A stretch of 64,000 nucleotides of DNA from the NCBI RefSeq assembly GCF_045037415.1, contig NZ_CP173438.1; one strand, 5' to 3'. Below the pieces are notes generated by a model. The model worked only from the letters and a program-made list of their open reading frames with translations, did not search any database and was not told the DNA's origin. How positions within the stretch are numbered: position 1 is the stretch's first letter; each line of letters starts with the position of its first letter. Shown here in pieces: positions 8,518-24,595 of this stretch. The DNA comes from Escherichia coli (GTDB lineage: Bacteria; Pseudomonadota; Gammaproteobacteria; Enterobacterales; Enterobacteriaceae). A program made the position numbers and the translations under genes.

Positions 8518-8716
8518 GAGGATATCCTTCAGCATAAATGTAATAGACAAAATGCAGTGTACCGGATACCGCCAAAAGCGAGAAGTACGGGCAGGTGCTA
8601 TGACCAGGACTTTTTGACCTGAAGTGCGGATAAAAACAGCAACAATGTGAGCTTTGTTGTAATTATATTGTAAACGCATTGCTAAATGTTTTTACATCCA
8701 CTACAACCATATCATC

Positions 8717-8735
8717 ACAAGTGGTCAGACCTCCT
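8717..8735 (+). promoter_or_regulatory. Putative FadR operator upstream of fadE
   Basis: ACAAGTGGTCAGACCTCCT contains the TGGTC-N-GACC core of the FadR consensus, about 20 bp before the fadE start. Confidence 0.45.
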
Positions 8736-8756
8736 ACAAGTAAGGGGCTTTTCGTT

Positions 8757-11201
8757 ATGATGATTTTGAGTATTCTCGCTACGGTTGTCCTGCTCGGCGC
8801 GTTGTTCTATCACCGCGTGAGCTTATTTATCAGCAGTCTGATTTTGCTCGCCTGGACAGCCGCCCTCGGCGTTGCGGGTCTGTGGTCGGCGTGGGTACTA
8901 GTGCCTCTGGCCATTATCCTCGTGCCATTTAACTTTGCGCCTATGCGTAAGTCGATGATTTCCGCACCGGTATTTCGCGGTTTCCGTAAGGTGATGCCGC
9001 CGATGTCGCGCACTGAGAAAGAAGCGATTGATGCGGGCACCACCTGGTGGGAGGGCGACTTGTTCCAGGGCAAGCCGGACTGGAAAAAGCTGCATAACTA
9101 TCCGCAGCCGCGCCTGACCGCTGAAGAGCAAGCGTTTCTCGACGGTCCGGTAGAAGAAGCCTGCCGGATGGCGAATGATTTCCAGATTACTCATGAGCTG
9201 GCGGACCTGCCGCCGGAGTTGTGGGCGTACCTTAAAGAGCATCGTTTCTTCGCGATGATCATCAAAAAAGAGTACGGCGGGCTGGAGTTCTCGGCTTATG
9301 CCCAGTCTCGTGTGCTGCAAAAACTCTCCGGCGTGAGCGGGATCCTGGCAATTACCGTCGGCGTGCCGAACTCATTAGGCCCGGGCGAGCTGCTGCAACA
9401 TTACGGCACTGACGAGCAGAAAAATCACTATCTGCCGCGTCTGGCGCGTGGTCAGGAGATCCCTTGCTTTGCACTGACCAGCCCCGAAGCGGGTTCCGAT
9501 GCGGGCGCGATTCCGGATACCGGGATTGTCTGCATGGGCGAATGGCAGGGCCAGCAGGTGCTGGGGATGCGTCTGACCTGGAACAAACGCTACATTACGC
9601 TGGCACCGATTGCGACCGTGCTGGGTCTGGCGTTTAAACTCTCCGACCCGGAGAAATTACTCGGCGGTGCAGAAGATTTAGGTATTACCTGTGCGCTGAT
9701 CCCGACCACCACGCCGGGCGTGGAAATTGGTCGTCGCCACTTCCCGCTGAACGTACCGTTCCAGAACGGACCGACGCGCGGTAAAGATGTGTTCGTGCCG
9801 ATCGATTACATCATCGGCGGGCCGAAAATGGCCGGGCAAGGCTGGCGGATGCTGGTGGAGTGCCTCTCGGTAGGCCGCGGCATCACCCTGCCTTCCAACT
9901 CAACCGGCGGCGTGAAATCGGTAGCGCTGGCAACGGGTGCGTATGCGCACATTCGCCGTCAGTTCAAAATTTCTATTGGTAAGATGGAAGGGATTGAAGA
10001 GCCGCTGGCGCGTATTGCCGGGAACGCCTACGTGATGGATGCTGCGGCATCGCTGATTACCTACGGCATTATGCTCGGTGAAAAACCCGCCGTGCTGTCG
10101 GCTATCGTTAAGTATCACTGTACCCACCGCGGGCAGCAATCGATTATCGACGCAATGGATATCACCGGGGGTAAAGGCATTATGCTCGGGCAGAGCAACT
10201 TCCTGGCCCGTGCTTACCAGGGGGCACCGATTGCCATCACCGTTGAAGGGGCAAATATTCTGACCCGTAGCATGATGATCTTCGGTCAGGGGGCGATTCG
10301 TTGCCATCCGTACGTGCTGGAAGAGATGGAAGCGGCGAAGAACAATGACGTAAACGCGTTCGATAAACTGCTGTTCAAACATATCGGTCACGTCGGTAGC
10401 AACAAAGTTCGCAGCTTCTGGCTGGGCCTGACGCGCGGTTTAACCAGCAGCACGCCAACCGGCGATGCCACTAAACGCTACTATCAGCACCTGAACCGCC
10501 TGAGCGCCAACCTCGCCCTGCTTTCTGATGTCTCGATGGCGGTGCTGGGCGGCAGCCTGAAACGTCGTGAGCGCATCTCAGCCCGTCTGGGGGATATTTT
10601 AAGCCAGCTTTACCTCGCCTCTGCCGTTCTGAAGCGTTATGACGACGAAGGCCGTAATGAAGCCGACCTGCCGCTGGTGCACTGGGGCGTACAGGATGCG
10701 CTGTATCAGGCAGAACAGGCGATGGACGATTTACTGCAAAACTTCCCGAACCGCGTGGTTGCCGGGCTGCTGAATGTGGTGATCTTCCCGACCGGACGTC
10801 ATTATCTGGCACCGTCTGACAAGCTGGATCATAAGGTGGCGAAGATTTTACAAGTGCCGAATGCCACCCGTTCACGTATTGGTCGCGGTCAGTACCTGAC
10901 TCCAAGCGAGCATAACCCGGTTGGTTTACTGGAAGAGGCGTTGGTGGATGTGATTGCCGCCGACCCGATTCATCAGCGGATCTGTAAAGAGCTGGGTAAA
11001 AATCTGCCATTTACCCGTCTGGATGAACTGGCGCACAACGCGCTGACGAAGGGGCTGATTGATAAAGATGAAGCCGCTATTCTGGTGAAAGCTGAAGAAA
11101 GCCGTCTGCGTAGTATTAACGTTGATGACTTTGATCCAGAAGAGCTGGCGACGAAGCCGGTAAAGTTGCCGGAGAAAGTGCGGAAAGTTGAAGCCGCGTA
11201 A
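8757..11201 (+). CDS. fadE: Acyl-CoA dehydrogenase FadE
   Basis: 814 aa from [14 protein letters not shown]; acyl-CoA dehydrogenase domains; ATG at 8757. Confidence 0.9.
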
Positions 11202-11870: not shown

Positions 11871-12641
11871 GTGCCTGGTTTGAAGATTACGCTTTTGCAG
11901 CAACCACTGGTGTGGATGGATGGTCCTGCCAACCTGCGCCATTTTGATCGTCAACTGGAAGGTATTACCGGGCGCGATGTGATCGTTCTACCGGAGATGT
12001 TTACCAGCGGCTTTGCCATGGAAGCGGCAGCTTCGTCGCTAGCACAAGATGACGTAGTGAACTGGATGACCGCTAAAGCGCAGCAGTGCAATGCGCTGAT
12101 TGCAGGCAGTGTTGCATTACAAACGGAGTCTGATTCGGTTAACCGCTTTTTGCTGGTTGAGCCGGGCGGCACGGTACATTTTTATGATAAGCGTCATCTG
12201 TTCCGCATGGCAGATGAGCATCTGCATTATAAAGCAGGCAATGAGCGAGTGATTGTGGAATGGCGCGGCTGGCGTATTTTACCGCTGGTGTGCTACGACT
12301 TACGTTTTCCGGTGTGGTCGCGCAATCTCAACGATTATGACCTCGCCATCTACGTTGCCAACTGGCCTGCACCGCGCTCTCTGCACTGGCAGGCATTACT
12401 GACAGCCCGCGCGATTGAGAATCAGGCGTATGTAGCGGGATGTAATCGCGTCGGCAGCGATGGCAACGGCTGCCATTATCGCGGTGACAGCCGGGTGATT
12501 AATCCACAAGGCGAGATTATCGCTACTGCCGACGCGCATCAGGCAACGCGCATTGATGCGGAGCTATCGATGATGGCATTGCGGGAATATAGAGAAAAGT
12601 TTCCGGCATGGCAGGATGCGGATGAGTTCACATTTCGTTAG
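11871..12641 (+). CDS. yafV: Nitrilase-superfamily omega-amidase / C-N hydrolase YafV
   Basis: 256 aa from a GTG start (MPGLKITLLQQ) with AAAGGA RBS; CN-hydrolase motifs (LPEMF, CYDLRFP). Confidence 0.85.
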   Translation: MPGLKITLLQQPLVWMDGPANLRHFDRQLEGITGRDVIVLPEMFTSGFAMEAAASSLAQDDVVNWMTAKAQQCNALIAGSVALQTESDSVNRFLLVEPGGTVHFYDKRHLFRMADEHLHYKAGNERVIVEWRGWRILPLVCYDLRFPVWSRNLNDYDLAIYVANWPAPRSLHWQALLTARAIENQAYVAGCNRVGSDGNGCHYRGDSRVINPQGEIIATADAHQATRIDAELSMMALREYREKFPAWQDADEFTFR

Positions 12642-12705
12642 AGGGTGAATATGGCTACGAGATAAGTTTCGTGGCTATTTTTCTCTGGAACTTAAACGAC
12701 GAAAT

Positions 12706-12727
12706 CCCGAATCAGTAATGATTCGGG
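12706..12727. terminator. Hairpin between yafV and tRNA-Asp (possible bidirectional terminator)
   Basis: CCCGAATC-AGTAAT-GATTCGGG perfect 8-bp stem with weak T tracts on both sides. Confidence 0.4.
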
Positions 12728-12739
12728 CTTTCTGAATAT

Positions 12740-12816
12740 TGGCGGAACGGACGGGACTCGAACCCGCGCCCCCCTGCGTGACAGGCAGGTATTCTAACCG
12801 ACTGAACTACCGCTCC
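12740..12816 (-). tRNA. aspV: tRNA-Asp (GUC), aspV-type copy with one variable-loop substitution
   Basis: 77-nt match to tRNA-Asp including CCA; differs from the copy at 20965-21041 only at 12769. Confidence 0.9.
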
Positions 12817-12948
12817 GCGTTGTGTTCCGTTGGGAACGAGGCGAATATTACGGATTGCCTCACCCTTCGTCAACGGTTTTTCTCATCTTTTGAATCGTTT
12901 GCTGCAAAAATCGCCCAAGTCGCTATTTTTAGCGCCTTTTACAGGTAT

Positions 12949-13680
12949 TTATGCCCGCCAGAGGCAGGTTCCGCCCTTCTTCTGCACCAGATCAAGACGG
13001 GCTTCATGTGCTGCAAGCTCTTCATCTGTCGCAAAAACAACGCGTAACTTACTTGCCTGACGCACAATGCGCTGAATTGTTGTTTCACCTTGTTGCTGTT
13101 GTGTCTCTCCTTCCATCGCAAAAGCCATCGACGTTTGACCACCGGTCATCGCCAGATAAACTTCCGCAAGGATCTGGGCATCGAGTAATGCCCCATGCAG
13201 CGTTCGTTTACTGTTATCTATTTCGTAGCGGGCACATAACGCATCGAGGCTGTTGCGTTTACCGGGAAACATTTTCCTCGCCACCGCAAGGCTATCGGTG
13301 ACCTTACAGAAGGTATTGGTCTTCGGAATATCGCGCTTAAGCAACGAAAACTCGTAGTCCATAAAGCCGATATCAAACGCTGCGTTATGGATCACCAACT
13401 CCGCGCCGCGGATATAGTCCATGAACTCATCGGCTACCTCGGCAAACGTGGGCTTATCGAGCAAAAATTCATCGGCAATACCATGTACGCCAAAGGCTTC
13501 CGGATCCACCAGCCGATCGGGTTTGAGATAAACATGGAAGTTATTGCCCGTCAGGCGACGGTTCACCACTTCAACGGCACCAATCTCAATGATCTTGTGG
13601 CCTTCATAGTGCGCACCAATCTGGTTCATACCGGTGGTTTCAGTATCGAGAACGATCTGGCGTGTAATTGCAGTGCTCAT
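12949..13680 (-). CDS. dnaQ: DNA polymerase III epsilon subunit (3'-5' proofreading exonuclease)
   Basis: 243 aa from [18 protein letters not shown]; DEDDh exonuclease motifs; divergent from rnhA. Confidence 0.92.
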
Positions 13681-13744
13681 AGCGGTCATTTATGTCAGAC
13701 TTGTCGTTTTACAGTTCGATTCAATTACAGGAAGTCTACCAGAG

Positions 13745-20964: not shown

Positions 20965-21041
20965 TGGCGGAACGGACGGGACTCGAACCCGCGACCCCCT
21001 GCGTGACAGGCAGGTATTCTAACCGACTGAACTACCGCTCC
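20965..21041 (-). tRNA. aspU: tRNA-Asp (GUC), distal gene of the rrnH-type operon
   Basis: Exact 77-nt match to remembered E. coli tRNA-Asp including CCA. Confidence 0.95.
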
Positions 21042-24400: not shown

Positions 24401-24476
24401 TGGTGGAGCTATGCGGGATCGAACCGCAGACCTCCTGCGTGCAAAGCAGGCGCTCTCCCAGCTGAGCTATAGCCCC
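24401..24476 (-). tRNA. alaV: tRNA-Ala (UGC), 16S-23S spacer
   Basis: Exact 76-nt match to tRNA-Ala(UGC) with CCA. Confidence 0.95.
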
Positions 24477-24518
24477 ATAACATGTAGTTAAAACCTCTTC
24501 AAATTTGCGGTGCAAATT

Positions 24519-24595
<77 letters not shown>

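What the first reader, a model, noticed from the sequence alone, without database searches (positions are those of the whole stretch)
12642..12739. No island between aspV and yafV
Only about 100 bp, containing one hairpin, separate the 3' end of tRNA-Asp from the yafV stop. In K-12 this interval holds several strain-specific genes (yafT, ykfM, yafU, yafF). The site is therefore unoccupied here, which is useful for reconstructing the attachment site and fits the single-base difference noted in aspV.
Basis: partly seen in the sequence, partly recalled or inferred. Interest (0 to 1): 0.3.

Follow-up and report, generated by a model that had tools for sequence, protein, structure and literature searches.

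The report
Empty ancestral aspV–yafV island site
In this E. coli (ST131-like) window the well-known tRNA-Asp (aspV) island hotspot is empty, holding only the original 98-bp spacer of two back-to-back terminator hairpins; this is real and ancestral, but ordinary.

Summary
Exactly 98 bp (12642-12739) separate the yafV stop codon from the 3' end of tRNA-Asp aspV, with no gene in between.

The spacer holds two hairpins, not one. One is a terminator-like hairpin for yafV. The other is a 14-bp stem-loop just after aspV, conserved with compensatory changes in at least 10 enterobacterial genera that share the same compact yafV-aspV layout. The empty state is therefore ancestral. It occurs in 756 of 5426 complete E. 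coli genomes, including ST131 and E2348/69.

Two parts of the interpretation fail.

- **K-12 is not "this site plus an insertion."** About 2.4 kb replaces 104 bp, including the last 13 nt of yafV and both hairpins. All islands examined share a yafV-side junction against an ISAs1 remnant (also in E. albertii) and differ on the aspV side. No tRNA-derived direct repeats exist, so no classical att site can be rebuilt.
- **The aspV single-base change (12769, variable loop) is unrelated to occupancy.** Only 3 empty-site genomes carry it, and it also occurs in a strain with a type VI secretion (T6SS) remnant.

The finding is already known in kind and of low interest.

The parts
11871..12641 (+). yafV (2-oxoglutaramate amidase), 256 aa, ending in TFR*
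   Evidence: The ORF is. RefSeq annotates it in the 100%-identical Esc30 genome as WP_001118016.1, and E2348/69 carries the same protein accession. It is collinear with K-12 YafV except for the last 3 residues, which are RLW* in K-12.
12629..12693 (+). Segment missing from every occupied genome examined: the last 13 nt of yafV plus the yafV terminator
   Evidence: Homology to K-12, CFT073, LF82, HH194M and E. albertii ends at 12628. In those genomes an ISAs1-family transposase remnant abuts yafV.
12651..12688 (+). Terminator-like hairpin for yafV: 12-pair stem, 4-nt loop, then TTTTCTCTGG
   Evidence: Found by the terminator scan. It folds at -21.3 kcal/mol, z = -4.0, and 0 of 200 shuffles fold as well. 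The divergent Escherichia locus L003 has it too; the two spacers share 85 of 99 positions.
12694..12732 (-). Conserved hairpin downstream of aspV (14-bp stem with arms 12719-12732 and 12701-12714, then UUUCGUCGUUU): the likely aspV terminator or 3'-processing hairpin
   Evidence: Searches show the hairpin. It is conserved in 17 sequences from at least 10 genera, with 3 covarying pairs. It is retained next to aspV in genomes whose T6SS island has tssA nearest aspV; in those the island starts at 12693|12694.
12733..12739 (-). 7-nt linker after the CCA end (ATATTCA here, CTATTCA in outgroups and K-12). The K-12-type and CFT073-type islands diverge from the window after 7 and 6 nt of it.
12740..12816 (-). 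aspV, tRNA-Asp(GUC)
   Evidence: ARAGORN and Rfam RF00005 at 67.7 bits.
12769..12769 (-). Single-base variant in aspV. It is G in the tRNA where aspU, K-12 and all outgroups have T. It sits at linear position 48 in the variable loop, which is U47 in conventional numbering by my own count.
   Evidence: The variant is in 59 of 5428 records. Only 3 of those combine it with the empty spacer. It is also present in CFSAN064036, which has a T6SS remnant.
12845..12873 (-). Promoter-like site upstream of aspV (TTGACG, 17-nt spacer, TAATAT)
   Evidence: Consensus scan only. Function is not shown.
12949..13689 (-). dnaQ, the conserved flank on the aspV side

Best explanation
The 98-bp interval is the native, never-occupied intergenic spacer between two convergent genes, yafV (+) and aspV (-).

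It consists of two back-to-back transcription-end hairpins and nothing else. One is the yafV terminator (12651-12688, + strand). The other is a stem-loop that starts 7 nt after the aspV CCA end (12694-12732, - strand).

This compact yafV-hairpin-aspV layout is the ancestral state of Enterobacteriaceae. In about 86% of complete E. coli genomes it has been overwritten by horizontally acquired DNA:
- T6SS/Rhs clusters;
- the CFT073 PAI-aspV;
- decayed remnants such as K-12's yafT-ykfM-yafU-yafF.

Every occupied genome examined shares one yafV-side scar: the last 13 nt of yafV and its terminator are replaced by sequence that abuts an ISAs1/H-repeat remnant. The aspV-side end comes in at least three versions.

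Shown: the anatomy, the conservation, the junction coordinates, the frequencies and the absence of tRNA-derived repeats. Inferred: that the hairpins terminate transcription, and that the yafV-side scar arose once through an IS/Rhs-associated event rather than through integrase-mediated tRNA integration.
For: Coordinates and hairpins.

Ancestral layout:
- tRNA-Asp lies 75-125 bp after yafV in Leclercia, Kluyvera, Pseudescherichia, Pseudocitrobacter, Siccibacter, Entomohabitans, Enterobacter sp. and others.
- The aspV-side hairpin aligns across 17 sequences with 14 pairs, 3 of them covarying.
- A divergent Escherichia locus (L003, flanks 91-94.5% identical) has an orthologous 99-bp spacer, 85 of 99 positions identical over its full length.

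Frequency:
- 756 of 5426 complete E. coli genomes carry this spacer, always once and always at yafV. They include EC958, JJ1886 and SE15.
- E2348/69 also has a 98-bp interval and the same YafV protein accession.

Junctions:
- K-12.
- A shared yafV-side junction with an ISAs1 remnant occurs in K-12, CFT073, LF82, HH194M and E. albertii.
- Three aspV-side types.
- K-12 yafT corresponds to the first gene of the LF82 T6SS island, at 82% nt identity over 1.2 kb.

Literature: T6SS islands at aspV are described for LF82, UTI89, 536 and others, with none in E2348/69 (PMC2941450). They are also described for EDL933 (PMC5363993) and next to yafT and an rhs element (PMC5422975 and PMC4232414).
Against: - The aspV-side hairpin's U-tract (UUUCGUCGUUU) is weak and failed the simple terminator scan on the minus strand. 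Termination there is inferred from position and conservation only.
- The yafV-proximal half of the spacer is not alignable outside Escherichia, because each genus has its own hairpin there. Its ancestry is shown only within Escherichia.
- Close B2 relatives such as LF82 have 99-99.8% identical flanks yet are occupied. The lineage of this window could therefore have regained the empty allele by recombination rather than retained it vertically.
- Genome counts come from a clinically biased collection in which ST131 is over-represented.
Confidence: 0.85

Rival explanations
1. The empty state is secondary in this lineage. An ancestor of ST131 and E2348/69 was occupied, like most of phylogroup B2, and regained the empty allele by homologous recombination across yafV and dnaQ with an empty-site donor. 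The spacer sequence would still be ancestral, but its presence here would not be vertical retention.
For: - B2 strains LF82 and CFT073 are occupied, and LF82's flanks are 99.0-99.8% identical to the window right up to the breakpoints.
- The occupied yafV-side junction is old, being shared with E. albertii.
- Empty-site genomes whose flanks are only 97.4-97.8% identical still carry a spacer about 99% identical.
Against: No recombination breakpoint or discordant divergence in the flanks was detected with the few genomes compared. The same data fit gain of the island by recombination in LF82-like lineages. The direction cannot be resolved without a genome-wide phylogeny.
Confidence: 0.25
2. The interval is a deletion scar: an island was once here and was excised or deleted, leaving about 100 bp of island-derived sequence.
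For: The 104 bp at 12629-12732 have no match in K-12. At first sight that resembles a scar of foreign DNA.
Against: - The aspV-side half is orthologous to the same hairpin in at least 10 other genera.
- The whole spacer is orthologous in the divergent Escherichia locus L003.
- No piece of it occurs inside the full CFT073, LF82, K-12 or HH194M islands.
- In E. coli genomes it occurs only at this locus.
Confidence: 0.03
3. The interval encodes an unrecognised functional element, such as a small RNA or regulatory site, beyond the two terminators.
For: Conservation of the aspV-side hairpin is strong, and its loop is flipped between alleles.
Against: - No Rfam family matches other than the tRNA, even at E <= 1.
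- No ORF lies wholly inside the interval.
- Only 46 nt are conserved, placed exactly where a tRNA terminator is expected.
- Island-bearing strains replace it with unrelated hairpin plus T-run sequences directly after aspV. This points to a generic terminator role.
Confidence: 0.05

Closest known systems
aspV-associated genomic islands of E. coli: T6SS PAI I of LF82/UTI89/536/APEC O1, the 37-kb T6SS region of EDL933, and PAI-CFT073-aspV. Salmonella SPI-6 at aspV is my recollection; its paper appeared but I did not read it.
   Same: It is the same chromosomal locus, between dnaQ-aspV and yafV-ivy-fadE. The window shows the unoccupied version of this published hotspot.
   Different: No island DNA at all is present here. 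The islands examined are not bounded by aspV-derived direct repeats and have no integrase next to the tRNA. They do not behave like classical tRNA-integrating elements.
E. coli K-12 aspV-yafV interval (yafT, ykfM, yafU', yafF')
   Same: The flanking genes and their order are the same.
   Different: K-12 carries 2417 bp in place of 104 bp. It has lost both ancestral hairpins and the last 3 codons of yafV. yafT matches the first gene of the LF82 T6SS island, and yafF is an ISAs1 remnant.
Empty aspV site of other B2 strains (ST131 EC958, JJ1886, SE15; EPEC E2348/69)
   Same: They have the same 98-bp spacer. It is identical in the ST131 strains over the region compared and differs by at least one base in E2348/69. 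The YafV protein is identical.
   Different: The window differs from the ST131 references only by the aspV variable-loop T-to-G change. That change is shared with just Esc30, Esc31 and BLSE177-2012.
Convergent-gene intergenic regions with back-to-back intrinsic terminators
   Same: There are two hairpins on opposite strands. Each lies directly after the 3' end of its gene and is followed by a T/U-rich run.
   Different: The aspV-side U-tract is interrupted (UUUCGUCGUUU). Termination has not been measured.

Membership tests
Unoccupied tRNA-gene island insertion site | Intact tRNA gene directly adjacent to the conserved core gene, with no intervening genes | tested here: met
   There are 98 bp between aspV and yafV, with no ORF or RNA family inside.
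Unoccupied tRNA-gene island insertion site | The same compact arrangement and orthologous spacer in outgroup taxa (ancestral state) | tested here: met
   At least 10 genera have aspV 75-125 bp after yafV with the conserved hairpin. The divergent Escherichia locus L003 has a spacer 85 of 99 identical.
Classical integrase-mediated tRNA attachment site (attB, with attL/attR in occupied genomes) | Occupied genomes carry a direct repeat of the tRNA 3' end at the distal island boundary | tested here: not met
   No second copy of the aspV 3' end was found. The blastn-short search used word size 10 over the whole CFT073, LF82, K-12 and HH194M islands.
Classical integrase-mediated tRNA attachment site (attB, with attL/attR in occupied genomes) | Occupied allele equals empty allele plus an insertion, with the flanking spacer preserved | tested here: not met
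   In occupied genomes 65-104 bp of the empty allele are missing, including 13 nt of yafV.
Classical integrase-mediated tRNA attachment site (attB, with attL/attR in occupied genomes) | Integrase gene adjacent to the tRNA in occupied genomes | tested here: not met
   By annotation, the first gene after aspV is yafT in K-12 and its 82%-identical counterpart (annotated hypothetical) in LF82, tssA in AR_0077, GmM077 and HH194M, and a DUF4942 gene in CFT073. CFT073 has only a short internal 'site-specific integrase'.
Intrinsic (Rho-independent) terminator | G+C-containing stem-loop followed by a T/U run, directly after a gene's 3' end | tested here: met
   This row concerns the yafV-side hairpin at 12651-12688. 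It passes the scan and folds with z = -4.0.
Intrinsic (Rho-independent) terminator | The same criteria, applied to the aspV-side hairpin | tested here: inconclusive
   The 14-bp stem is conserved and covarying, but the U-tract is interrupted and the scan made no call on the minus strand. Termination activity cannot be tested with these tools.
tRNA-Asp(GUC) | Cloverleaf with a GUC anticodon that scores above the Rfam tRNA gathering threshold | tested here: met
   ARAGORN and RF00005 at 67.7 bits against a threshold of 29. The variable-loop variant does not abolish detection.

The most novel reading that the evidence does not exclude
The empty and occupied alleles at aspV-yafV may be an old polymorphism shared across species. 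The occupied allele's yafV/ISAs1 junction is shared by E. coli phylogroups A and B2 and by E. albertii. The empty allele is shared by several E. coli lineages and by a divergent Escherichia lineage. If so, both have been kept in the genus by recombination, possibly with selection on T6SS carriage, since before E. coli and E. albertii split.
Probability: 0.3. Interest if true: 0.3.

Novelty: already known. Interest (0 to 1): 0.12.

Why it matters
The main value is as a reference point. The window provides the ancestral sequence of a much-studied E. coli island hotspot. With it, island ends can be placed to the base: 12628|12629 on the yafV side, and 12693|12694 or 1-7 nt after the tRNA on the aspV side.

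The comparison shows three further things:
- The aspV "islands" are replacements with an IS/Rhs-type scar, not att-bounded integrations.
- K-12's yafT-yafF genes are the decayed ends of a T6SS island.
- YafV's last three residues in K-12 and most E. coli are encoded by sequence that replaced the ancestral 3' end.

None of this changes current understanding.

Tried and rejected
- **Spacer in K-12 or inside islands.** I looked for the 104-bp spacer in K-12 and within complete islands. Nothing was found beyond the palindromic hairpin matching itself on both strands.
- **tRNA 3'-end repeats.** I searched with 16-25-nt probes allowing mismatches and with blastn-short. Only the tRNA genes themselves matched.
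- **The partial spacer matches.** I first assumed the roughly 89 genomes with a partial match were a second empty allele. Those I fetched have T6SS clusters or remnants that keep only the aspV hairpin.
- **The L003-type spacer.** It has no megablast match in the complete E. coli genomes.
- **The extra 82 'contiguous' genomes.** I sampled one, strain A30. It holds IS1A plus a hypothetical gene, about 1 kb in all, so it is not empty. The other 81 were not inspected.
- **Rfam at a permissive threshold.** Only the tRNA matched.
- **Pfam on K-12 YafT and YkfM.** No family matched.
- **Literature search for 'aspV' with 'yafV'.** No paper was found.
- **Whether the aspV T-to-G change could mark the empty site.** Rejected.

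Full report
**What is there**

The window is E. coli. The 1828 bp spanning yafV, aspV and dnaQ are 100% identical to strains Esc30, Esc31 and BLSE177-2012, and 99.9% identical to many ST131 genomes.

The local order is as follows:
- fadE, 8679-11201 (+)
- ivy (-)
- yafV, 11871-12641 (+)
- a 98-bp spacer, 12642-12739
- tRNA-Asp(GUC) aspV, 12740-12816 (-)
- dnaQ, 12949-13689 (-)
- rnhA (+)

Rfam finds nothing in 12300-13100 except the tRNA.

**The spacer is two hairpins**

On the minus strand, 7 nt after the CCA end of aspV, lies a 14-bp stem with arms 12719-12732 and 12701-12714, followed by UUUCGUCGUUU. The interval folds at -22.3 kcal/mol, z = -3.3.

On the plus strand, 10 nt after the yafV stop, lies a 12-pair stem at 12651-12678, followed by TTTTCTCT. 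It is the only terminator-like site the scan reports, and it folds with z = -4.0.

The interval is thus filled by the transcription-end structures of two convergent genes.

**K-12 comparison**

BLAST of the window against K-12 shows that homology ends 7 nt beyond the tRNA (window 12733). It resumes 13 nt inside the 3' end of yafV (window 12628). In other words, 2417 bp in K-12 replace 104 bp here. YafV ends in TFR* in the window and RLW* in K-12. K-12 is therefore not "this site plus an insertion".

**Is the empty state ancestral?**

I fetched yafV loci from one genome per species and scanned them for tRNAs. tRNA-Asp lies 75-125 bp after yafV in:
- Leclercia
- Kluyvera
- Pseudescherichia
- Pseudocitrobacter
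- Siccibacter
- Entomohabitans
- several Enterobacter or unnamed Enterobacteriaceae
- a divergent Escherichia genome (L003)

The 46 nt next to aspV align across all of them. RNAalifold gives 14 pairs, three with compensatory changes: A-U to G-C in 7 sequences, U-A to C-G in 3 and G-C to A-U in 2. The window itself carries one of these, CCUGA/UCAGG to CCCGA/UCGGG.

The yafV-proximal half differs between genera, each having its own hairpin. Within Escherichia, however, the whole spacer is orthologous. The window and L003 share 85 of 99 positions, while their flanks are 91-94.5% identical. The empty arrangement is therefore the ancestral one, not a deletion scar.

**Frequency**

The 104-bp spacer occurs in 756 of 5426 complete E. 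coli genomes, once each and always at yafV. These include EC958, JJ1886 and SE15. EPEC E2348/69 has a 98-bp interval and the same YafV protein accession.

A further 82 genomes count as "contiguous" under the tool's joining rule but lack this spacer. The one I sampled (A30) holds about 1 kb with IS1A.

Some empty-site genomes have flanks only about 97.5% identical to the window, so the allele is not confined to one clone. The collection is clinically biased, and these percentages are not population frequencies.

**Island boundaries**

On the yafV side, every occupied genome I read diverges from the window at 12628|12629. These are K-12, CFT073, LF82, HH194M and also E. albertii NBRC 107761. All share homologous sequence there that runs into an ISAs1-family (H-repeat) transposase remnant.

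The aspV side has at least three versions:

| Type | Divergence point | Next to aspV |
|---|---|---|
| K-12 / LF82 / O157 | 1-7 nt after CCA | yafT or its homologue; 2859 genomes |
| CFT073 | 6 nt after CCA | DUF4942/CbtA-type island end |
| AR_0077, GmM077, HH194M, CFSAN064036 | 12693|12694 (ancestral aspV hairpin kept) | T6SS cluster or remnant with tssA nearest aspV |

The K-12-type and CFT073-type flanks, which replace the ancestral hairpin, each supply an unrelated hairpin plus T-run just after aspV. This supports a terminator role for the ancestral hairpin, although that remains an inference.

**K-12's genes are island remnants**

K-12's yafT region matches the aspV-proximal end of the LF82 T6SS island, at 82% over 1.2 kb. 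yafF matches ISAs1 copies at the LF82 island's distal end. K-12's strain-specific genes are thus the decayed ends of a T6SS/Rhs island.

This agrees with published descriptions of the T6SS cluster at aspV, next to yafT and an rhs element (PMC2941450, PMC5363993, PMC5422975, PMC4232414).

**Direct repeats**

I assembled the complete CFT073 (about 100 kb) and LF82 (about 35 kb) islands from fetched pieces. I then searched them, along with K-12 and HH194M, for the tRNA and spacer using short-word BLAST and mismatch-tolerant patterns.

Only the resident tRNA and the yafV end matched. No aspV-derived repeat and no distal copy of the spacer exists. By annotation, no integrase gene sits next to aspV.

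**The aspV single-base difference**

The window has G at window position 12769, where aspU, K-12 aspV and all 14 outgroup aspV genes have T. This is tRNA linear position 48, in the variable loop; by my own count it is U47 in conventional numbering.

A 91-nt probe is 100% identical in only 59 of 5428 records. A 202-nt probe joining the spacer and the tRNA is 100% identical in only three: Esc30, Esc31 and BLSE177-2012. All other ST131 genomes listed show a single mismatch.

The G also occurs in CFSAN064036, whose aspV carries a T6SS/Rhs remnant. The similarly occupied HH194M has T. The variant is a rare polymorphism in at least two backgrounds, unrelated to whether the site is occupied. I cannot exclude a base-calling artefact in a G-run, nor can I tell whether the variant affects the tRNA.

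**What remains open**

LF82 (B2, occupied) has flanks 99.0-99.8% identical to the window right up to the breakpoints. Within B2 the two alleles therefore sit on nearly the same background.

Whether the ST131 and E2348/69 lineages kept the empty allele vertically or regained it by recombination cannot be decided from the few genomes compared. The shared yafV/ISAs1 junction in E. albertii suggests that the occupied allele is old or has moved between species.

**Verdict**

This is the expected unoccupied state of a well-documented hotspot, found in about one in seven complete genomes.

The useful corrections are:
- The spacer has two terminator hairpins, not one.
- The islands are replacements, not insertions.
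- There are no att repeats.
- The aspV SNP is irrelevant to occupancy.

Noticed in passing
window 12715-12718 and closing pairs (12713-12720): The loop of the aspV-side hairpin is flipped between alleles. Read in the tRNA's orientation, it is CATTACTG in the window, L003 and AR_0077. It is CAGTAATG, CAGCAATG or CAGAAATG in HH194M, GmM077 and all other genera. The two forms are reverse complements, which suggests a hairpin-loop inversion by template switching.
   Followed up: partly
window 12629-12641 (yafV 3' end): YafV's last three residues depend on the allele. They are TFR* in empty-site E. coli, KLH* in L003 and RLW* in K-12; the DNA of CFT073, HH194M and E. albertii indicates RLL*, RL* and RLL*. 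In most E. coli the yafV C-terminus and stop codon are therefore encoded by sequence that replaced the ancestral 3' end.
   Followed up: partly
L004 6730-6900 (E. albertii NBRC 107761): E. albertii shares the K-12-type yafV/ISAs1-remnant junction. Downstream lies a 1424-aa ORF, and there is no tRNA-Asp within 6 kb. The occupied allele thus crosses the species boundary.
   Followed up: partly
L007 6770-7400 and L010 (Citrobacter youngae, Citrobacter sp. Cu233): About 590 bp are inserted exactly between yafV and the conserved aspV hairpin. They encode a 136-aa protein with a signal-peptide-like N-terminus, of the LTXXQ (Spy/CpxP-like) family, PF07813, E = 1.3e-6. A second genus has therefore used the same gap between the two terminators.
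   Followed up: partly
window 12769; L089 4018-4041 (CFSAN064036): The aspV variable-loop T-to-G variant is found in 59 of 5428 records and in at least two unrelated contexts: the empty site in Esc30, Esc31 and BLSE177-2012, and the T6SS remnant in CFSAN064036. Recurrent mutation, recombination or a systematic base-calling error in the G-run were not distinguished.
   Followed up: partly
L001 1509-1580 (K-12) and L087 5632-5700 (CFT073): Both of these island types, which replaced the ancestral aspV hairpin, supply an unrelated strong hairpin plus T-run within about 60 nt of the tRNA end. K-12 has GCCGCAAGATTTTTAATTTTGCGGTTTTTTT and CFT073 has GGCCATGCTGTTGATTAGCATGGCCTTTT.
   Followed up: no
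window 20965-21041 and 24401-24595: A second tRNA-Asp with the canonical sequence, plus tRNA-Ala and tRNA-Ile, mark the rrnH operon and aspU. This matches the K-12 gene order for the region.
   Followed up: no
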